Below, one piece after another: positions 1 to 64,000 of a stretch of DNA of 64,000 nt. The stretch's first letter is position 1, and every line of letters begins with the position of its first letter. The stretch covers positions 1 through 64,000 of IMG/VR virus record IMGVR_UViG_3300050821_017570; one strand, given 5' to 3'. Source of the stretch: a virus. The notes under the pieces are model-generated. The model searched no databases and was not told the DNA's origin. It saw nothing but the letters and a program-made list of their open reading frames with translations. The translations under genes and the position numbers were made by a program.

Positions 1-113
1 TCATACGTATTCCAGGCACCCTTTACGGCATTCACAGCCTTGGGCTCATACGTATTCCAAGCACCCTTGACCGCATTGACCGCCTTCGGCTCATACGTGT
101 TCCAGGCACCCTT
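1..113. repeat. 45-bp coding tandem repeat, about 2.5 copies visible
   Basis: Units start at 1, 46 and 91 with tcatacgtRttccaRgcaccc; they encode KGAWNTYEPKAVNAV; no unique spacers. Confidence 0.9.
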
Positions 114-55866: not shown

Positions 55867-56055
55867 TCACTTCTCGGCGAGGCAATCGCCATCTGTGTTG
55901 TAGAGATCGTAGACAAACGGACAGCGCTTGCGCTCAGAGCACCCATCACATGTGAAGGCCGGATCACGCCTCAGCTGCTGGTTTGCATCAATCAGCGCTT
56001 GGGCCCGAATGCTCGCGAGTTGCTCATCGGTCAGAAGTCGCTCCCGTTTAGGCAT
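55867..56055 (-). CDS. Small Cys-rich hypothetical protein
   Basis: CDGC...CPFVYDLYNTDGDCLAEK. Confidence 0.65.
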   Translation of the reverse strand: MPKRERLLTDEQLASIRAQALIDANQQLRRDPAFTCDGCSERKRCPFVYDLYNTDGDCLAEK

Positions 56056-56443
56056 CGGGTGTCTCCTTGGCTGGATGACACTCGTTAAGCCCGTGATCGA
56101 TCCACGTTTGCTCAGCTGCCAACATGGCAGCCCGAGAGATCGCCAGCTCAGGCGTCGTCTCGGTCACCTCGGCATGGAGGTCCAGCTGAGTATGATGGAA
56201 CTGAACGTACACCTTCTGATTCAGCATCCGCAGGGTCAGACTCCACCCGAGCTGATCCATCCGGTGGGCGACCTGCCAGGCGTCTGCCGGATCGGTCGTG
56301 GGGTTCCACTCGTCGACATGGAGCCCAACCGGATCCCACACCTGATAGCATGCCAGGAAAAGCCCTGACGCGTTCGTACGCTCCCAGCCCATCACCTGTT
56401 GGGCCACCTGCGCATCCAGTATCTGCGGAAATTCGTGGCTCAC
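56048..56443 (-). CDS. Phage ABA-sandwich/NinX-like small protein
   Basis: LDAQVAQQVMGW...WNPTTDPADAWQV...TPELAISRAAM. Confidence 0.65.
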   Translation of the reverse strand: MSHEFPQILDAQVAQQVMGWERTNASGLFLACYQVWDPVGLHVDEWNPTTDPADAWQVAHRMDQLGWSLTLRMLNQKVYVQFHHTQLDLHAEVTETTPELAISRAAMLAAEQTWIDHGLNECHPAKETPDA

Positions 56444-57504: not shown

Positions 57505-57816
57505 TTAGGATTCGTACAACAGATACATGAGATCGCGGTCATGCAGGTCTTCAGGATATCCACTATATCCGTAAAAGTATAAGTTACTCCATTCGCTCCA
57601 AGTGCTTGCCGCCACTCGGGCGCTATCGCTCTCAACCGTGCCATCACTAGCGTAGCTGACACAGGTGTAGGTGAGGTGATACTGCCAACGATGCGTGTGG
57701 CCACCGCGATCATGCCGCTGGCCAGCACTACGGTCGATTCCTCGGATCGTGTACCGATATAGATGGTTTCGAGTCATCCAGACCTGACCGATCCGTAAGG
57801 GTGCCAAATCTGTCAT
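57505..57816 (-). CDS. GQxW-family paralogue 1
   Basis: LRIGQVWMTR...DLMYLLYE. Confidence 0.75.
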   Translation of the reverse strand: MTDLAPLRIGQVWMTRNHLYRYTIRGIDRSAGQRHDRGGHTHRWQYHLTYTCVSYASDGTVESDSARVAASTWSEWSNLYFYGYSGYPEDLHDRDLMYLLYES

Positions 57817-58103
57817 GGTGGAATCTTTCCATTTGGGTCACCAGCGGTTTCGAAACTTACTGGTGAGATCTCGCTAGCATACTCGCAGGTCTCGCCAGCC
57901 GCTCGGTTCAGCATACTGCTCGCCAATTGACCGTTTCCAAACGCGACCTTGATCGCTTCAAGCGTCTCGGCTGAAATCACATCGGTATGTGGGAACGTGC
58001 CGACACGTACCCACATCCCACGAGGTAGCATTGCGTATACGGCCTGCTGATCATCGAACCGAGAGACCACAAACTCTGGCACAAAATGTAACGTCTCATC
58101 CAT
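57813..58103 (-). CDS. Hypothetical protein
   Basis: 96 aa, coupled. Confidence 0.65.
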   Translation of the reverse strand: MDETLHFVPEFVVSRFDDQQAVYAMLPRGMWVRVGTFPHTDVISAETLEAIKVAFGNGQLASSMLNRAAGETCEYASEISPVSFETAGDPNGKIPP

Positions 58104-58386
58104 GGTATGCTTTCGGGTCCCACAAGAGGGTTATGAGGTCCACACCTTCGGGATGATTTGGTGTCTGATGAAACCACCAGGCGGTCGAACCCATGTATGC
58201 GGTATAGATGGTGTCGCGATCGCCTAACGAAATGTCAGGATAATCTGGATGAAGCCCACACCGATATCCGTGGGAGTAGATCCGAACATCATACTTACCC
58301 AGACCGGATCGCACTCTCGTTACGTGCACAATCTCAACACGGTGTGACTGATCGCGCAGCTGCCAAATCTGACCCGCCCGCAGCAT
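58096..58386 (-). CDS. GQxW-family paralogue 2 (likely ATG 58386)
   Basis: LRAGQIWQLRDQ...DLITLLWDP. Confidence 0.75.
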   Translation of the reverse strand: MLRAGQIWQLRDQSHRVEIVHVTRVRSGLGKYDVRIYSHGYRCGLHPDYPDISLGDRDTIYTAYMGSTAWWFHQTPNHPEGVDLITLLWDPKAYHG

Positions 58387-58451
58387 GGGTGGATAGACCC
58401 CCCAGTGGAGCGGGAACAACCAGCCCGGCAGGTTACTGACGAACCGCCACA

Positions 58452-59105
58452 TCAGGTGGCCCGACAGAAGCCAAGTGAATCCAAGGTCTCGTTCGGGTCA
58501 CGGAAGTATCCGATGATCTGCTTGGGCGTCACCCGGTTGGTCCCACTCATGGTGCCACCGTTCTGGATCATCTGGATCAGAATGCCGACCGTGTCGATCG
58601 TCAGGTTCGACTGGCCGGTTTGTTCACGCAGGTACTTGGCGAACTCAGGCCAACTGGCCAGCTGGGCGTGCCCCTGACGGCTCATGATGCCTTCGCACAC
58701 GTAGGCCAACCCAATCGAGCAGCTCGGGAAGTGGGTCAGCAGTTGAACTTCGGGAATCTGGTAGAGCACCGACTCAACGTCGGCGACCGGGTTACGGAGG
58801 TAGCTATCGCACCAGCTGATGGCTCTCAGGAGGCCCAGACTGCGGGTGCAACCGATGACCTGTTCGGCTCGTAGGCTAAACGTCTGATCGAGCCATTCGG
58901 TCATCCGCTTGTCACGATACTCGTACCCACAGAGCGTGGTGGCCTCAAGCCCATCACCCCATGGCATGGACAGCGTCTGGGCCAACACGAGGTTCCACTG
59001 GGTCAGCTCGGGCTGCCGGACGAACTCAGGTGCATTCTTCAGGACGACAAGACCTGCTTTGGTCGCGCGAGCCAATTGGCCGGCGCGTTTCGATTGTTTC
59101 GACAT
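58452..59105 (-). CDS. Hypothetical protein
   Basis: 217-aa ORF. Confidence 0.7.
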   Translation of the reverse strand: MSKQSKRAGQLARATKAGLVVLKNAPEFVRQPELTQWNLVLAQTLSMPWGDGLEATTLCGYEYRDKRMTEWLDQTFSLRAEQVIGCTRSLGLLRAISWCDSYLRNPVADVESVLYQIPEVQLLTHFPSCSIGLAYVCEGIMSRQGHAQLASWPEFAKYLREQTGQSNLTIDTVGILIQMIQNGGTMSGTNRVTPKQIIGYFRDPNETLDSLGFCRAT

Positions 59106-59120
59106 GATGTGCTTTCTAGT

Positions 59121-59765
59121 TCACGAACCTGAACTGGTATCAGCCGGGTTGGGACCAGGATCCTGATCCGACGTCGGACGGGCCGGCTTCGCCATATCGT
59201 CCGGCTTGGGCCAATTCAGCGGACAGGTTCGCTGGCTCGAAACCGAACTATCGTCATCAAAGTACTGAACCCGTACCTCACTGGGGAGGCGACCGGCCTC
59301 AATCGCCTTGGCCGCACCCTCAGGCCAATCAAGCCGACGGGTCACCTCATGAGCCGTAGGTTCCGACATCACGCTGGCCTGGATCTCCTTGGCCAGCCCT
59401 TCGCCGTGCCGCTTATGGGCCGCCGGATCACGCGCGTGAGCCAGCCAGGTGACCCCCATGGCGGCCAGCTCGGGATCCTGCTGGGCCGACTTACCAGTGA
59501 CGAAGTCATTGTGAGCTTCATCGAACCCAGCATACCCGTGCTGTCTCGCCACCTGATCGATCTTGTGGGCCTGATCTCGTTGGTAGCGAATGCTGGCCCT
59601 ATGGTTGCGCCAGTACTTGAGTGCGATCCGGAAGGCGTCCCAGGCCGCATGGACGACAGATGGGCGACCCGTCGCTACAGGCATTCGGGTGGCTGGGTCG
59701 TATCGGTAGTTCTGCTGACGCTGCGAATGGTAGGCTGACCGAAACGACTGAATCAGGTTGAACAT
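59121..59765 (-). CDS. Hypothetical protein (likely ATG 59765)
   Basis: TAAAGGA upstream of MFNLIQ. Confidence 0.7.
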   Translation of the reverse strand: MFNLIQSFRSAYHSQRQQNYRYDPATRMPVATGRPSVVHAAWDAFRIALKYWRNHRASIRYQRDQAHKIDQVARQHGYAGFDEAHNDFVTGKSAQQDPELAAMGVTWLAHARDPAAHKRHGEGLAKEIQASVMSEPTAHEVTRRLDWPEGAAKAIEAGRLPSEVRVQYFDDDSSVSSQRTCPLNWPKPDDMAKPARPTSDQDPGPNPADTSSGS

Positions 59766-59773
59766 ATGGTCCT

Positions 59774-60262
59774 TTAATCCAAATGATGGAGGAGCCACCA
59801 GACCGCCACTAACTCGCGACGGCTCATCAGGTGGAGGGGTCGGGCAGTCGCGCGTAACGCGACGATACGGTCAAAGATGGGGCCACAATCGGCTCGCTCG
59901 TCGGCCGACACCATCTCACAGATCTGCTGATCCAGCAGATCGATCTGGTGGGTCAACCGCCTAGACTGACCAGTCTGGAACAGCTCAGTCAGGCGAATCG
60001 CATCGGCCGCCTCATTGGCCATCAGGTTGGGCCAATAGATCAGGTGGTAGCGAATCTGACTGGTGACATAACTCAGTATGCCGACCTGATAGTCAGCCGA
60101 CGTGTAGTCACCGTGTGGGTCCACCAGAGCGGGCAAATGGACCTCGTCAGCCCACCGGCCGGCTGTGACGGTATCACCATAGGGCCAGTACCGTTCCATC
60201 GCTACCTCATGCGTGGCGAGCTGTTGACAGAACTCTGGCGTCAGTACCGATGGAGCACCCAT
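59774..60262 (-). CDS. Hypothetical protein with possible UVR-like helical hairpin
   Basis: LDQQICEMVSADERADCGPIFDRIVAL; TAAAGGA upstream. Confidence 0.6.
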   Translation of the reverse strand: MGAPSVLTPEFCQQLATHEVAMERYWPYGDTVTAGRWADEVHLPALVDPHGDYTSADYQVGILSYVTSQIRYHLIYWPNLMANEAADAIRLTELFQTGQSRRLTHQIDLLDQQICEMVSADERADCGPIFDRIVALRATARPLHLMSRRELVAVWWLLHHLD

Positions 60263-60272
60263 AGTGGGTCCT

Positions 60273-60560
60273 TTATAGGAGTTGGGTCTCTACATGCAAG
60301 GCAGGATCGTACAGACACTGCGTGAGATCCCAATCCGATCCACACCGAGAGTGCCAGTAGTTGGCCGTGGCGATCCACCGGTAAGGCATGAGTTCACTCA
60401 CATGATCAGACCAACAGCCAGACGGCAACATACGGCGGGTATGCGGATGAACCCCTTCGGCATCAATGGTAGTGTCAACGATACGGTATCGATGCTGCTG
60501 GCTCCGACACAGCCAGACCTGACCTGGCAGCAATCTGCTGGGGTTTAGGATGGGGTCCAT
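60273..60560 (-). CDS. GQxW-family paralogue 3
   Basis: LLPGQVWLCRSQ...DLTQCLYDP. Confidence 0.75.
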   Translation of the reverse strand: MDPILNPSRLLPGQVWLCRSQQHRYRIVDTTIDAEGVHPHTRRMLPSGCWSDHVSELMPYRWIATANYWHSRCGSDWDLTQCLYDPALHVETQLL

Positions 60561-60814
60561 AGGAGTTGCCAGGTGTTGTTATCTCCGTCTTGAAACGCGA
60601 CATCGGACAACACTTTCGACACACGAAACGCCCATCCTGGGGACTGAATCGCTCCTTCATAGTTCCCCCAGTAATTCCATCCGAACCAGCGGTCACCGTG
60701 CCGGATGATGGCAACCCGATTGACTGATTCCTGTCGCAACTCAAAATATTCCCGATACATCCGCATCCAGATCTGTCCATGTCTGAACCGAATCGATGAT
60801 TTGTGTGGTTCCAC
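60545..60814 (-). CDS. GQxW-family paralogue 4
   Basis: FRHGQIWMR...WQLLWTP. Confidence 0.7.
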   Translation of the reverse strand: MEPHKSSIRFRHGQIWMRMYREYFELRQESVNRVAIIRHGDRWFGWNYWGNYEGAIQSPGWAFRVSKVLSDVAFQDGDNNTWQLLWTPS

Positions 60815-60815
60815 G

Positions 60816-61172
60816 TTAGGTCTCGGTCGACCCTGCCTCAGGGTCCCAGTAGAGGAGAATGTAGTTGGCCTGGTCAGACGGGGTGTAGAACTGGGTAGGT
60901 GTCATGACTTTGATATCAGGCAGATAGTCAGAGAGTGGTCTAACCTCCGCATCATCACTTTCCAAAAATCTGAACACTGCGCCGCCGTGTGGTTTCAGCT
61001 CATACCCACCGTAGTAGCAGCCATGGAGACTCAGCCGCCCGCTAGGACCTTTGGCTCGGAAAACTGCGAAGTATTCGGTCATACGCTCGTAACGGCGTTC
61101 CTCACTGCCACAACGGTCTAATAGTGTCCCATGTTGGCGCCAAATCTGAAAGTGTTTGAAATGGTGCTTCAT
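60816..61172 (-). CDS. GQxW-family paralogue 5 (divergent)
   Basis: FKHFQIWRQ...YILLYWDP. Confidence 0.7.
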   Translation of the reverse strand: MKHHFKHFQIWRQHGTLLDRCGSEERRYERMTEYFAVFRAKGPSGRLSLHGCYYGGYELKPHGGAVFRFLESDDAEVRPLSDYLPDIKVMTPTQFYTPSDQANYILLYWDPEAGSTET

Positions 61173-61483
61173 ATGATGGCCTGTTCTGTGTCTTCATACG
61201 TGAGAATCCAAGCGGTGCCGTGTGGTTCTACCAGCACGGTGGGCTCGATAAGTTTGGGCTGGCTAAGACCGTGTTGGAGTTTCCACGGCTTGGAAACACG
61301 CTGTAGGTAGGTTATTACCGTGAGACCACCTCGTACGGCGCTACGCTTGAAGAACCAACCACCCAAACGATCCCTGGTATTGTGGTGCCGCATGACCGCC
61401 ATCAACCACGGATCCTCAGGATCATCTGTAGCCTGCCAGAGCTGGAAGTGCCTGAAACAATCGTAGGGGTTCGGAGCCGTCAT
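61169..61483 (-). CDS. GQxW-family paralogue 6 (divergent)
   Basis: FRHFQLWQA...WILTYED. Confidence 0.65.
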   Translation of the reverse strand: MTAPNPYDCFRHFQLWQATDDPEDPWLMAVMRHHNTRDRLGGWFFKRSAVRGGLTVITYLQRVSKPWKLQHGLSQPKLIEPTVLVEPHGTAWILTYEDTEQAII

Positions 61484-61770
61484 GTTGGACTCCAGACGAG
61501 ATGGATGAGCGGGTAGTTGTCTAGCCCAGTGTGTCCTTTATCGCGGCTCCAAACTCCTCCGTAGCGATAGAACGTATTGGTGGTTGTCCTATGGTCACAA
61601 CTATACTTGGTTTCACAATCAATCGAATCGTCTCGTTTATACCGCTTGATAATCTCAACGATCTGGCAGGTCACCTCTTGATCGTCTGTCATCCAGATCT
61701 GACCGGCCTGTAGGTCACACGGTAAGCACGAGTCCTGGGTTGAACCCATTGGTTTCTCCTCGATAGCCAC
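61480..61770 (-). CDS. GQxW-family paralogue 7
   Basis: LQAGQIWMTDDQ...PLIHLVWSP; start uncertain. Confidence 0.7.
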   Translation of the reverse strand: MAIEEKPMGSTQDSCLPCDLQAGQIWMTDDQEVTCQIVEIIKRYKRDDSIDCETKYSCDHRTTTNTFYRYGGVWSRDKGHTGLDNYPLIHLVWSPT

Positions 61771-62614
61771 GCGGGTTGGCTACCAAACGGGTCTGGTCGA
61801 TATGAAAGTCAAACTCAGTATGGGTGTGACCGAAGCACCAGAGGTCTGGCTGGGTTCGGTAGATCAGATCATCCAGTGGGGCACAGAAATAGGGGTTCAG
61901 CCAATGGCCACGGAACTTTGGCGCAATCGCCTCCTCTGAGGGAATCCAATGGGTCAGCACGATCCGCTTGGGAGTAGGGATCTGCATGGCGCGATCGGCC
62001 CGTCGGAGCCAACCCGTTAGCCTCATCACGGCATCCTGGTGGGCCTCAATATGTCGGGCTGGAGTCCATTCAAACCTATCCCGCATGATGAGGTTCGGGC
62101 TAAAGTCGCTCACCCCTACCGAGGTGAGCCAGCAGTTGAGCCCAACCTCGGTGAGGCCGCCAGGTGGCGTCACCTGAATGGGAACCAACGGGTTCAGTGG
62201 GTTGACCAGTCTGAGGCCGTCACGCTCGATCCGCTGTCTCAGATCGGGGTCCAGCGATATGGTGAGGCCGCTCCACAAGGGGGTTCCGTAGATCTCATAG
62301 GGTTGGCCCCCAACCATCAGGGTGGTGGCCTCGTTGTGAAGCAACGTCACATGCGGACATTCCTGAAGTGCGGCCTTGAAATACGGTGACAGGAGATCTT
62401 TATGCCGGAGATCCTGAGAGTCGGTGTGGTAGAAGTCATGGTTACCGAGCACCAAATAGACAGGCCGTTCAATCTGGTTGAGAAAATCGATCACCAGTTT
62501 GGGTTTAGACCAGTGGCCCAAATCCCCACATACGCAGGTGATGTCGGCCTCCACCTCCGGCAACCCAAGGTAGCGGCCCTCAAGATGGAGATCACTAATG
62601 AGGTGAAGCCGCAT
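61715..62614 (-). CDS. Calcineurin-like metallophosphoesterase
   Basis: ISDLHLE, VCGDL, LGNHDFY, LTHWIP, FGHTH, NPRGY. Confidence 0.9.
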   Translation of the reverse strand: MRLHLISDLHLEGRYLGLPEVEADITCVCGDLGHWSKPKLVIDFLNQIERPVYLVLGNHDFYHTDSQDLRHKDLLSPYFKAALQECPHVTLLHNEATTLMVGGQPYEIYGTPLWSGLTISLDPDLRQRIERDGLRLVNPLNPLVPIQVTPPGGLTEVGLNCWLTSVGVSDFSPNLIMRDRFEWTPARHIEAHQDAVMRLTGWLRRADRAMQIPTPKRIVLTHWIPSEEAIAPKFRGHWLNPYFCAPLDDLIYRTQPDLWCFGHTHTEFDFHIDQTRLVANPRGYRGETNGFNPGLVLTV

Positions 62615-62881
62615 TTAGCCTTCTGGGTTGTAGATAAGGGTTATGAGATCAAGCCGTTGAGGATCGGTGGTCCCAAGATCATCGAAACGATAATAGGAGC
62701 CATCAGGCGATGGAACCCACCTATACGTTAGATTAGCTAGTCGCATACCATCGGTATGAAACCATCGACACTGTATCCGACCATCTGGCCATGGGTTTGT
62801 ATCTACTTTCAGACGCCAATCCTGATCCCTAGAGAGCCAAATCTGCCCGGCCTTAAGCGGAGCTAGCACGGTGGCTCCCAC
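62615..62881 (-). CDS. GQxW-family paralogue 8
   Basis: LKAGQIWLSRDQ...DLITLIYNP. Confidence 0.75.
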   Translation of the reverse strand: MGATVLAPLKAGQIWLSRDQDWRLKVDTNPWPDGRIQCRWFHTDGMRLANLTYRWVPSPDGSYYRFDDLGTTDPQRLDLITLIYNPEG

Positions 62882-63120
62882 AGCAGAGTGATGAGATCGT
62901 CCTGTGATGGATTACTCGGCAGGAACGCCCAATAGGCATTATTATAGGATGGTCGCCAATGAAGTTTTGTGGCACCGAAACCAGCAGACCCGGTCGAACG
63001 ATCCCGAAACGTGACTTCAAGCCAACCCTCAGTCGACGTAACGGGCTCACCAGTTACCTGGATACGACGATCCTGTCTCCGGCAGAGCCACACCTGGCCC
63101 TGTCGTAGTGGTACTAACAT
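62863..63120 (-). CDS. GQxW-family paralogue 9
   Basis: LRQGQVWLCRRQ...DLITLLWEP. Confidence 0.75.
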   Translation of the reverse strand: MLVPLRQGQVWLCRRQDRRIQVTGEPVTSTEGWLEVTFRDRSTGSAGFGATKLHWRPSYNNAYWAFLPSNPSQDDLITLLWEPPC

Positions 63121-63130
63121 GCAGGCCCCT

Positions 63131-63871
63131 TTAGCGTGGGGTTGTGTGCCTCAAACTGCCAGACAGACGGAAGCTGCGACGCTCCCGTCGTGACCCCACG
63201 GGGGCCGCATGAGCCATCCGGAATCTGCGGACCTCAGCATCGCTCACACCCTCTAGGGACGCGAACTCAAAATTCGTCGCTTGGTTCCACCGCATGGTAT
63301 GCAGGTCGAAATACCCAATGTAACCACCCTTGGCCAACTCAAACGCTCGGTGAACGTTCTGCCGGAAGCTACACGGGCCGACAAACCCAGGTTCGAACCA
63401 CTGAGGGGTCACGAAGTCACTCACGAGGGTGTTGTTGATCTTATACCCTAACGAGTCGTCTTCGACCGCATCAGCTACCTCGTAAGCCATGATGCGTGCG
63501 GTATGTGGGTCCAACACCGAGAGATTAACGTAGGGGTCTAAAATTTGCTCAAGAAGTTCGTGACTCACCGTAACTGACAACGCGTCGCCCGCCTGCTGGT
63601 CCGCCCGGGCAAACACCTTGCCGATCGGCTTGCCTGAGCTACTAAGGTCGTGGTATCCAAGCGCTCCAGCCTGATCCGCATCGTCCAGAATCAGCAGCTG
63701 CCAACACGCCGGGTCGATCGGATCGGTTCGACCGCAGAACTCCAGATGTGCATCAAGATCCCAGATTGGTGCAAAGTCCCTACTGATCTGGGTTTGAAGA
63801 TCTGGCACCATTGCCGCCACCACCGCATCTGATGTAATGGTCGAATGGTTAATCAGGCTGATACAGATCAT
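63131..63871 (-). CDS. Zincin-like metallopeptidase family protein
   Basis: GALGYHD, SVTVSHELLEQILDP, AYEVADAVE, VSDFVTPQWF. Confidence 0.6.
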   Translation of the reverse strand: MICISLINHSTITSDAVVAAMVPDLQTQISRDFAPIWDLDAHLEFCGRTDPIDPACWQLLILDDADQAGALGYHDLSSSGKPIGKVFARADQQAGDALSVTVSHELLEQILDPYVNLSVLDPHTARIMAYEVADAVEDDSLGYKINNTLVSDFVTPQWFEPGFVGPCSFRQNVHRAFELAKGGYIGYFDLHTMRWNQATNFEFASLEGVSDAEVRRFRMAHAAPVGSRRERRSFRLSGSLRHTTPR

Positions 63872-63886
63872 GTGGGACCTCGCCGG

Positions 63887-64000
63887 CTAACCTACTTGGT
63901 CGATTGGGTCCCACAAGAGGGTGATGAGGTCAGTTATGCGTACAATGTCCGGCAGCTCGTCTGAAGAGCACTCGTGCCAATAGTCGCCGGTGCGGCCGAC
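63887..64000 (-). CDS. C-terminal fragment of GQxW-family paralogue 10 (truncated by the window edge)
   Basis: Manual translation ...YWHECSSDELPDIVRITDLITLLWDPIDQVG*. Confidence 0.65.
   Translation of the reverse strand, partial: VGRTGDYWHECSSDELPDIVRITDLITLLWDPIDQVG

What the first reader, a model, noticed from the sequence alone, without database searches (positions are those of the whole stretch)
57505..64000. Expanded family of about 10 small paralogues with fixed ends and hypervariable cores
Seen: proteins of about 85-120 aa starting (L/F)xxGQ(I/V)Wxx(R)xQ (two have FQxW) and ending DLxxL(L/I)(W/Y)(D/E/N)P at 57505, 58096, 60273, 60545, 60816, 61169, 61480, 62615, 62863 and 63887 (partial). 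The middles differ in length and sequence, and unrelated enzyme genes are interleaved. Inference: an SH3/Tudor-like scaffold, with terminal strands pairing, diversified into a repertoire of binding surfaces. This could be an undescribed anti-defence or host-takeover library expanding by duplication and recombination, and it probably continues beyond the window.
Basis: partly seen in the sequence, partly recalled or inferred. Interest (0 to 1): 0.7.

Follow-up and report, generated by a model that had tools for sequence, protein, structure and literature searches.

The report
Soil-phage array of ~40 mini-barrel genes
An uncultured 187-kb soil phage spends about 6% of its genome on some 40 old, very diverged copies of one undescribed small barrel-shaped protein; they are probably a panel of binders aimed at host proteins, but the function is untested and similar arrays are already known from other large phages.

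Summary
The window is bases 1-64000 of a 187,139-bp phage contig, so window and genome numbering are the same. An HMM built from the nine complete window copies finds 41 members genome-wide. Of these, 32 lie between 57,505 and 70,801 on the minus strand and 9 are scattered. Leave-one-out HMMs support 38. The copy at 60545 is borderline, and the two 'FQxW' copies (60816, 61169) are not supported.

AlphaFold gives a confident six-strand beta model (pLDDT 89). Its best solved look-alikes are all SH3-like barrels (KOW, Tudor, EF-P domain I), at Z 4-6 only. The fixed N end is strands 1-2 and the fixed DLxxLL is the last strand. The terminal [WY][DE]P also encodes the next gene's ribosome site or start codon.

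The cores align no better than shuffled cores. They are old rather than fast-changing: dS is above 1, dN/dS is about 0.25 in the two closest pairs, and there is no reverse transcriptase.

The family has no Pfam, PHROG or PDB match. About 90 relatives exist in metagenomes only.

Function is unknown. My best guess is a co-expressed panel of host-protein binders. The kind of thing is known (about 35 zinc-ribbon copies in phage G), and this scan has noted similar arrays on other DNA.

The parts
57505..57816 (-). Family member, 103 aa, last gene of the main array; tail LLYES lacks the [WY]xP ending
   Evidence: Leave-one-out HMM E 2.1e-13; ORF
58096..58386 (-). Family member, 96 aa from the refined start (the longest ORF runs to 58452)
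   Evidence: Leave-one-out E 2.3e-15; start choice; a soil RNA-library contig covers 58067-58309 (weak, because DNA carry-over is not excluded)
60273..60560 (-). Family member, 95 aa
   Evidence: Leave-one-out E 4.4e-13
60545..60814 (-). Borderline member, 89 aa (HGQIW ... LLWTPS)
   Evidence: Leave-one-out E 0.059; motifs and position in the array
60816..61172 (-). Possible very diverged member, 118 aa (FQIW ... LLYWDP); not statistically supported
   Evidence: Leave-one-out E 11; AlphaFold model poor, pLDDT 62.9 and pTM 0.48, mostly beta with strands at both ends
61169..61483 (-). Possible very diverged member, 104 aa (FQLW); not statistically supported
   Evidence: Leave-one-out E 0.87; 4-nt overlaps with both neighbours
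61480..61749 (-). Family member, 89 aa from the refined start
   Evidence: Leave-one-out E 2.8e-12
62615..62869 (-). Family member, 84 aa; the only copy with a fairly close outside relative (P0060, 47% identity)
   Evidence: Leave-one-out E 2.2e-13
62863..63120 (-). Family member, 85 aa; this is the copy that was modelled
   Evidence: Leave-one-out E 1.1e-15; AlphaFold pLDDT 89.4, pTM 0.78, strands at 10-13, 19-22, 34-40, 51-57, 64-66, 76-81; fold searches
63887..64000 (-). 3' part of a family member that runs to 64171 (94 aa). Beyond the window (genome numbering equals window numbering), 22 further members follow in a row to 70801, broken only by a MazG-like gene (65194-65583) and a DEDD exonuclease gene (69691-70257). 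Nine more members are scattered at 77625, 84296, 96666, 115319, 115585, 119146, 119441, 119682 and 180764
   Evidence: tail DLITLLWDP...; whole gene leave-one-out E 3e-14; members beyond the window
61715..62614 (-). Interleaved calcineurin-like metallophosphoesterase, 299 aa
   Evidence: Pfam Metallophos E 4e-13; PHROG 1649 E 6e-30
57813..60262 (-). Interleaved non-family ORFs without any family match (57813-58103, 58452-59105, 59121-59798, 59774-60262); member 58096-58386 lies among them
   Evidence: no Pfam or PHROG match
63131..63871 (-). Interleaved non-family ORF, 246 aa, no family match

Best explanation
This is a real, undescribed family of small cytoplasmic proteins, each a single SH3-like beta-barrel. 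Ancient tandem duplication expanded it to 38 firm copies (up to 44 with borderline ones), about 6% of an orphan 187-kb soil myophage genome. Thirty-two copies lie among ten other genes in the 13-kb stretch 57,505-70,801, in runs of up to 15 genes whose stops and starts overlap. That stretch sits in the accessory region between the structural and replication modules. The conserved N end (L-R/K-x-G-Q-I/V-W-x-x-R-x-Q) forms strands 1-2 and their turn, and the conserved D-L-x-x-L-L forms the last strand, so together they are the fixed scaffold. The final [WY]-[DE]-P plus 1-4 residues is conserved mainly because the same bases make the next gene's Shine-Dalgarno site (TGG-GAG in the W-E-P type) or its start codon (T-ATG-A in the Y-D-P type). 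The 49-83-residue middle forms the strand 3-4 hairpin and the loops. It differs completely between copies, is rich in Trp, Tyr, Arg and His, and gives each copy its own surface and charge. The most likely job (inferred, not shown) is a co-expressed panel of binders that each hold or block a different host or rival-phage protein, that is, host takeover or counter-defence. I give the descriptive part about 0.9 and the binder or counter-defence function about 0.35-0.4.
For: Family and copy number: 38 of 41 with leave-one-out E <= 1e-5; 11,838 nt, 6.3% of the genome. Fold: (pLDDT 89.4, pTM 0.78, six strands); the top eight matches are all SH3-like barrels at Z 4.7-6.0. Scaffold against variable middle. 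Junctions: overlaps of 4, 7, 14, 16, 17 or 20 nt at 24 of 28 member-to-member junctions. An SD-like 4-mer is found at 12 of the 15 Trp-type junctions and at none of the Tyr-type ones, where the ATG lies in the Tyr-Asp/Glu codons. The [WY]xP tail is present in 26 of 28 members followed by a member, against 6 of 13 not followed (7 of 13 after a hand correction for 77625, whose W-E-P lies further from the end), P = 0.002. Selection acts on the protein, not the DNA: synonymous variation within G-Q-I-W codons and near-random codon identity in the conserved blocks. Copies are kept, not decaying: dN/dS 0.25-0.28 in the two closest pairs, no broken copies seen, and some copies are nearer to proteins from other metagenomes than to any paralogue. 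Diverse surfaces: Trp is 2.9-fold, Tyr 1.75-fold and Arg 1.6-fold enriched, and pI runs from 4.1 to 10.5. Context: the neighbours are a metallophosphoesterase, MazG, a DEDD exonuclease, an RNA ligase, RlaP and an HD protein, the kind of accessory genes that Iyer et al. 2021 (PMC7824862) discuss under phage-host conflict.
Against: No functional evidence of any kind exists. No member matches a known anti-defence protein, and there are no expression data beyond one small contig in a soil RNA library. Structural matches are only Z 4-6, so the fold assignment is general and carries no function. Both structure models used alignments of the family itself. Copies are old and the two sampled populations are identical, so there is no sign of an arms-race tempo. 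Conserved polar residues (invariant Gln, near-invariant Gly, common Arg, Gln and Asp) could mark one shared ligand or partner rather than a purely structural role. The host is unknown.
Confidence: 0.45

Rival explanations
1. The copies are small regulators that dock on nucleic acid or on the transcription or translation machinery. This is what KOW, Tudor, CarD-RID and EF-P-domain-I barrels do. On this reading the conserved Gln, Arg, Gln and Asp form one shared docking site and the variable part tunes it.
For: The best structural look-alikes are Spt5 KOW, EF-P domain I, the PcrA/UvrD Tudor domain, CarD and ribosomal SH3-like proteins. Gln and Trp are invariant and Gly nearly so across 114 sequences. 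Iyer et al. 2021 proposed transcription-factor or DNA-binding roles for the ~35 zinc-ribbon copies of phage G.
Against: pI ranges from 4.1 to 10.5, with 11 acidic copies, which is not the uniform basic charge expected of nucleic-acid binders. No KOW or other Pfam match appears even at E 10. Forty near-equally expressed regulators in one operon are hard to rationalise. Z values are low.
Confidence: 0.15
2. The copies are an array of immunity-type proteins. Each paralogue neutralises a different toxin or effector domain, whether a polymorphic toxin, an abortive-infection nuclease or a rival phage's weapon, as in bacterial poly-immunity loci. This is a special case of the binder reading.
For: Tandem arrays of diverged paralogues of one small fold are the hallmark of SUKH and other immunity loci, including in DNA viruses (PMC3113570, found). 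The neighbourhood holds RNA-repair genes (RNA ligase, RlaP, HD) that answer RNA-cleaving effectors.
Against: No sequence link to SUKH or any Imm family. No toxin gene was seen beside the array. The fold differs.
Confidence: 0.12
3. The copies are virion-associated proteins (decoration, internal or injected) whose fixed ends serve assembly or packaging.
For: The array directly follows the structural and tail-fibre block of the window. Fixed ends with variable cargo recall the internal proteins of T-even phages (from my own knowledge, not checked here).
Against: The ends are predicted strands of the barrel, not detachable signals. The same domain occurs as internal repeats in multi-domain proteins. 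No PHROG structural family matches. Copies also sit among replication genes.
Confidence: 0.08
4. The array is a largely functionless by-product: duplicates that persist because each is locked into a translationally coupled operon.
For: Overlapping junctions make clean deletion costly. No function is known.
Against: dN/dS is 0.25-0.28 in the closest pairs. All 41 frames are open, with no fragments found. Scaffold residues are kept after dS exceeds 1. About 90 related proteins occur elsewhere, some closer to a given copy than its own paralogues. A virus genome is under size pressure.
Confidence: 0.08
5. The array is an actively diversifying cassette system, either diversity-generating retroelement-like or shuffled by recombination at the conserved junctions.
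For: The conserved junction blocks of 55-86 nt at 60-84% identity could in principle serve as crossover sites, as PeSL motifs do in T4-type phages (PMC2839356, PMC4122927).
Against: No reverse transcriptase. There is no near-identical template/variable repeat pair; the best repeat is 77 nt at 84%. Synonymous sites in the blocks are near random. Two samples are identical. Junctions are coding overlaps without promoter or terminator enrichment.
Confidence: 0.05

Closest known systems
Lineage-specific expansions of one small domain in large phages, e.g. the ~35 zinc-ribbon copies of Bacillus phage G (Iyer et al. 2021, PMC7824862; read)
   Same: Dozens of diverged copies of one small single-domain protein in one large phage genome, with unknown function that is guessed from the fold.
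   Different: The fold is an SH3-like barrel rather than a zinc ribbon. The genome is 187 kb, below the 200-kb jumbo line. Most copies lie in runs of overlapping, coupled genes within one 13-kb stretch. There is no sequence relation.
SH3-like small beta-barrels of the KOW / Tudor / EF-P domain I type (e.g. 4zn3_A Spt5 KOW, 4qqg_A, 5wxk_B, 5dma_A) and DUF1653 (3be3_B)
   Same: The predicted barrel aligns over 53-67 residues at rmsd 2.3-4.1 and Z 4.3-6.0.
   Different: No sequence or profile match. Foldseek finds nothing at E <= 1e-3. There is an extra strand and a long variable hairpin. The Z values are too low to claim homology.
Tandem immunity-gene arrays of the SUKH superfamily in bacteria and DNA viruses (Zhang, Iyer, Aravind 2011, PMC3113570)
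   Same: The architecture and logic match: tandem, strongly diverged paralogues of one small fold, read as a panel of binders.
   Different: The fold and sequence are unrelated, and no toxin partner was seen here.
PeSL cassettes of T4-type hyperplastic regions (PMC2839356, PMC4122927)
   Same: Small accessory genes separated by a recurring conserved junction in a plastic genome region.
   Different: PeSLs are non-coding promoter plus stem-loop motifs with shown shuffling. Here the junction is coding in two frames, and I found no evidence of shuffling.
Other small-gene arrays noted by this scan on other phage DNA (e.g. e1-5956022, e1-5725623, e1-5703634)
   Same: Head-to-tail mini-genes with a fixed scaffold. 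In one case a shared ending doubles as the next gene's ribosome site.
   Different: Look-ups by sequence found no shared sequence. These are AI notes, not checked by me.

Membership tests
SH3-like small beta-barrel fold (KOW/Tudor type) | Five or six strongly bent strands forming a closed small barrel | tested here: inconclusive
   The AlphaFold model has six strands and pLDDT 89. The top eight VIA matches are all SH3-like barrels, but Z is only 4.7-6.0, and Foldseek finds no match at E <= 1e-3. I could not inspect coordinates to check barrel closure.
KOW domain (Pfam KOW) | Match to the KOW sequence motif | tested here: not met
   None of the 41 members matches KOW or any recurring Pfam family, even at E 10.
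Lineage-specific small-protein expansion of a large phage | Tens of paralogues of one small domain within one phage genome | tested here: met
   38 copies with leave-one-out E <= 1e-5, plus 3 weak and 3 borderline extra ORFs.
Lineage-specific small-protein expansion of a large phage | Signature of local (tandem) duplication | tested here: met
   32 of 41 lie within one 13-kb stretch. The nearest paralogue is adjacent in 8 cases against 2.0 expected, P = 0.004. However, 8 of 41 are nearer to an outside protein, so the expansion is old and not wholly private to this phage.
Diversity-generating retroelement target | Reverse transcriptase gene plus a template/variable repeat pair | tested here: not met
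   No RVT_1 match in the genome. No near-identical repeat pair is present; the best is 77 nt at 84%.
PeSL-type shuffling cassette | Non-coding junction with an early promoter and a stem-loop | tested here: not met
   Junctions are coding overlaps of 4-20 nt. Promoter- and terminator-like sites are at or below shuffle expectation.
SUKH / polymorphic-toxin immunity array | Membership of a known immunity superfamily, and an adjacent toxin gene | tested here: not met
   No Pfam match, and no toxin-like neighbour among the genes scanned. The functional analogy itself was not tested.
Translationally coupled operon | Stop/start overlaps, with the ribosome site inside the upstream gene | tested here: met
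   24 of 28 member-to-member junctions overlap by 4-20 nt. 12 of the 15 Trp-type junctions carry GGAG or GGGA 4-16 nt before the start. Coupling itself is inferred, not measured.

The most novel reading that the evidence does not exclude
The array is a phage-encoded repertoire of binders on one fixed mini-barrel scaffold, expressed together. Each copy neutralises a different host defence effector or other host protein, and the dual-coding junction lets whole genes be gained, lost or swapped as cassettes between related phages. This would be a hard-wired 'antibody-like' library in a virus of bacteria.
Probability: 0.18. Interest if true: 0.85.

Novelty: new member of a known kind. Interest (0 to 1): 0.5.

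Why it matters
Large phages repeatedly carry arrays of dozens of small paralogues, and nobody knows what they do. This one is a clean case for testing. It has a confidently modelled fold, a clear split between scaffold and variable surface, about 40 copies in one operon-like block, and neighbours that look like counter-defence enzymes. If the copies prove to be specific binders or inhibitors, the family would be both a source of new anti-defence proteins and a natural small-scaffold binder library. The junction analysis also gives a practical warning: part of a 'conserved protein motif' in such arrays is really the next gene's ribosome site or start codon.

Tried and rejected
Family and sequence searches that found nothing:
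- Pfam and PHROG scans of the members found nothing recurring.
- A profile search against PDB sequences found nothing at E 10.
- Foldseek against PDB and BFVD found nothing at E <= 1e-3.
- ESM Atlas leads (DUF6354, DUF8087, DUF1653) all scored below 0.9 and were not borne out by Pfam.
- A weak DUF4222 hint on a multi-domain relative gave no match in this genome.

Search for related loci:
- The search for related loci with the alignments failed or confirmed nothing.
- DNA-pattern scans for the N motif and the junctions in IMG/VR, JGI metagenomes and GTDB genomes returned only chance matches, judged by my HMM.
- The phage's DNA polymerase found no close relative in IMG/VR and reached only <=24% identity in deposited phages.
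- tblastn of three members against 50,697 phage records gave nothing. One hit in Azospirillum phage Cd (E 0.5) was chance.
- The word-indexed protein search found only self hits.

Other tests:
- Homodimer prediction gave no answer.
- dN/dS beyond the two closest pairs is unusable because dS is saturated.
- Site-wise dN/dS was not possible because no orthologue DNA is available.
- The second model, of the FQIW outlier, was too poor to decide its membership.
- Some of the 130 library hits are false positives from BNR-type 'GQTW' repeats (P0113, P0124).
- A 'GQIWQCKD' motif near 105098 lies outside the frame of the 368-aa ORF at 104033-105139. I treated it as chance.


Full report
WHAT IS THERE. 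The window is bases 1-64000 of a single 187,139-bp contig with 56.5% G+C. It is a phage: it encodes a Baseplate J protein, tail-fibre and head-decoration-like proteins, a Phage_ABA_S domain and a family A DNA polymerase. CheckV rates it 95% complete. No deposited phage is close to it; the polymerase reaches at most 24% identity. Nearly all of its genes are on the minus strand. It occurs, with identical sequence, in two soil metagenomes.

THE OBSERVATION. An HMM made from the nine complete window copies picks out further ORFs elsewhere in the genome at E 1e-13 to 1e-4. Iteration converges on 41 ORFs.
- 32 lie between 57,505 and 70,801.
- 9 are scattered among replication and nucleotide-metabolism genes, at 77625, 84296, 96666, 115319, 115585, 119146, 119441, 119682 and 180764.
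- Together the 41 take up 11.8 kb, or 6.3% of the genome.

Leave-one-out HMMs remove the circularity.
- 38 of 41 score E <= 1e-5.
- 60545 is borderline (E 0.059).
- The two 'FQxW' genes are not supported: 61169 scores 0.87 and 60816 scores 11. They fit only by size, position and motif resemblance. A model of 60816 was too poor to decide (pLDDT 63).
- Three more ORFs (122931-123236, 128029-128415, 128394-128837) carry the N motif and score E 0.004-0.27.

FIXED ENDS, VARIABLE MIDDLE. With the blocks anchored on the motifs, mean pairwise identity is 41% in the 15-residue N block and 39% in the 7-residue C block. The cores are 49-83 aa long and reach 22.9% identity under optimal alignment, against 21.9% for shuffled cores. 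The cores are therefore diverged beyond recognition. The conservation sits in the protein rather than the DNA:
- The G-Q-I/V-W codons vary at synonymous sites.
- At positions where two copies share an amino acid, they share the codon only slightly more often than codon usage predicts: 0.44 against 0.39 in the N block and 0.42 against 0.31 in the C block.

FOLD. AlphaFold2 was run on 62863-63120 with the 41 paralogues as its alignment. It gives pLDDT 89.4 and pTM 0.78, with six strands at residues 10-13, 19-22, 34-40, 51-57, 64-66 and 76-81.
- The N motif covers strands 1-2 and their turn.
- D-L-x-x-L-L is the last strand.
- The variable core covers the strand 3-4 hairpin (the least confident part), strand 5 and the loops.

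Foldseek finds nothing significant in PDB or BFVD. The exhaustive aligner's best matches are all SH3-like barrels: Spt5 KOW (Z 6.0), Tip60 and Esa1 Tudor-knot, EF-P domain I, the PcrA/UvrD Tudor domain, CarD, ribosomal SH3-like proteins and DUF1653 (Z 4.3). By the tool's own guidance this level shows a shared arrangement, not homology. The model rests on an alignment of the family itself.

THE JUNCTIONS. Of the 28 member-to-member junctions, 24 overlap, by 4, 7, 14, 16, 17 or 20 nt.
- Trp type: the upstream gene ends L-L-W-E/D-P-(P)-(C/T/P). The TGG-GAG/GAT codons provide a GGGA or GGAG Shine-Dalgarno site just before an ATG that overlaps the stop by 4 or 7 nt. An SD-like 4-mer is found at 12 of the 15 Trp-type junctions.
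- Tyr type: the upstream gene ends L-I/L-Y-D/E-P-x-x. The next ATG is made from the TAT-GAN codons, and the stop follows 14-20 nt later. None of these junctions has an SD-like 4-mer.

In line with this, the [WY]xP tail is present in 26 of 28 members that are followed by another member, against 6 of 13 that are not (P = 0.002). One of the seven misses, 77625, does carry W-E-P further from its end, which makes it 7 of 13. The tail after the motif is 1-4 residues when another member follows and 5 or more when none does. D-L-x-x-L-L is kept in both groups. So the extreme C end, and the first few residues of the next protein, are constrained in two reading frames. This is direct reading of the sequence. 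That the genes are translationally coupled is an inference from it.

AGE AND TEMPO.
- Only two pairs exceed 50% identity, and both are neighbours: 68719/68949 and 119441/119682.
- Their dS is 1.2-1.4 and their dN/dS is 0.25-0.28. They are old and under purifying selection.
- The nearest paralogue is the adjacent gene in 8 cases against 2.0 expected (P = 0.004). This is a faded tandem-duplication signal.
- 8 of 41 copies are closer to a protein from another metagenome than to any paralogue, for example 62615 to P0060 at 47%. Diversification therefore predates this phage.
- No reverse transcriptase is present.
- There are no long near-identical repeats. The best is a 77-nt junction block at 84%.
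- The two soil samples show no differences.

'Hypervariable' therefore means anciently diverged, not demonstrably fast-evolving.

RELATIVES. A profile search of 1.84 billion cluster representatives returns 130 hits at E <= 1e-3. Of these, 34 are this genome's own genes. About 90 others have the same ends (for example M-T-L-P-x-L-K-V-G-Q-I/V-W-Q-C-R-D-Q ... D-L-V-T-L-L-Y-D-P). They come from NCBI, Logan and JGI assemblies on short contigs, and none has a name beyond 'hypothetical protein'. Many start M-T-(L/P)-P, which is what a Tyr-type overlap with an upstream Y-D-P would produce. A shorter form of the domain, about 65-70 aa, occurs as 2-10 tandem repeats inside larger proteins (P0030, P0063, P0071, P0080, P0100 and others). 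This shows that the unit is a true folding domain. These proteins have no Pfam match either. A few hits are false positives (BNR-type repeats). Pattern scans did not find the family in IMG/VR, JGI metagenome contigs, GTDB genomes or deposited phages.

CONTEXT. Inside and next to the array lie:
- a calcineurin-like metallophosphoesterase (61715-62614);
- a MazG-like pyrophosphatase (65194-65583);
- a DEDD (RNase T/DnaQ-like) exonuclease (69691-70257);
- slightly upstream, an RNA ligase, an RlaP-type nucleotidyltransferase and an HD protein.

Five interleaved ORFs have no family match. Promoter- and terminator-like sites are not enriched. A 10-bp hairpin followed by T-rich sequence sits in the 64-nt gap just before the first array gene. 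One 243-nt contig from a soil RNA library covers member 58096. This is weak evidence, because DNA carry-over is not excluded.

HOW IT MOST LIKELY WORKS.
- Shown: one family, probably one small barrel, about 40 intact copies, a scaffold-versus-surface pattern, dual-coding junctions, and old, selectively maintained copies.
- Composition: relative to the rest of the proteome, the proteins are 2.9-fold enriched in Trp, 1.75-fold in Tyr, 1.6-fold in Arg and 1.5-fold in His. They are poor in Ala and Lys, and their pI runs from 4.1 to 10.5. They have no signal peptides.
- Inferred: the copies are made together from a long coupled message, and each presents a different aromatic-rich surface on the same scaffold. 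The most economical reading is a panel of protein binders or inhibitors aimed at different host or rival-phage proteins. This is the logic of tandem immunity-gene arrays (PMC3113570) and fits the accessory, conflict-type neighbourhood. I give this about 0.35-0.4.
- Rivals: small regulators docking on nucleic acid or on the transcription or translation machinery (suggested by the look-alike folds and the invariant Gln and Trp, weakened by the spread of charge); virion or injected proteins; functionless duplicates (weakened by dN/dS and intact frames); and an actively diversifying cassette system (largely refuted for mutagenesis, untested for shuffling).

COMPARISON WITH WHAT IS KNOWN. The phenomenon is known: Iyer et al. 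2021 describe about 35 copies of a zinc ribbon in Bacillus phage G as an 'unprecedented lineage-specific expansion' (PMC7824862). This scan has also noted many similar arrays on other phage DNA, including one where a shared ending doubles as the next gene's ribosome site. The present family is new: it has no Pfam, PHROG or PDB match and no hit in deposited phages. It has a different (SH3-like) fold and is slightly larger than the phage G case. I file it as a new member of a known kind. Interest is moderate. It is a good experimental entry point into an open question, namely what these arrays do, but it is not a new kind of system, and its function is no clearer than for the others.

Noticed in passing
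genome 64172-64193 (L001:1172-1193), just beyond the window end: A perfect (ACAG)5.5 tetranucleotide repeat (CTGT on the coding strand) lies in the last codons of member 64152-64415, directly before the start codon of member 63887-64171. Slippage here would shift the upstream frame and could uncouple the downstream gene.
   Followed up: partly
genome 70815-70852 (L001:7815-7852, minus strand): A 10-bp G+C-rich hairpin (AAACCCAGGC-TCT-GCCTGGGTTT) followed by T-rich sequence sits in the 64-nt gap between the upstream gene and the first gene of the array. It could be a terminator or attenuator that sets the array apart as its own unit.
   Followed up: no
genome 74433-77258 (L001:11433-14258): An RNA-repair-like trio lies upstream of the array: an RlaP-type nucleotidyltransferase, an RNA ligase with an OB-fold domain, and an HD-domain protein. 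One family member (77625-78116) just beyond them carries a long acidic Asp/Glu tail.
   Followed up: partly
proteins P0030, P0063, P0071, P0080, P0097, P0100, P0114, P0117, P0119, P0120: A shorter form of the same domain (~65-70 aa; F/K-V-G-Q-x-W ... D-L-V-E-L-V) occurs as 2 to more than 10 tandem repeats inside larger metagenomic proteins with unrelated C-terminal parts. None matches Pfam. This looks like an unnamed domain superfamily.
   Followed up: partly
window 1-100: The contig starts with about two copies of a 45-nt direct repeat (TCATACGTATTCCA...), seen in the printout. It may be a repeat-containing gene cut by the contig end.
   Followed up: no
window 56048-56443: A Phage_ABA_S (ABA sandwich) domain protein lies just before the array region.
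   Followed up: no
genome 122931-123236, 128029-128415, 128394-128837: Three further small minus-strand ORFs carry K-I-G-Q-I/V-W near the N end, and one also ends F-L-L-W-S-P-E. They score only E 0.004-0.27 against the family HMM and may be very diverged members.
   Followed up: partly
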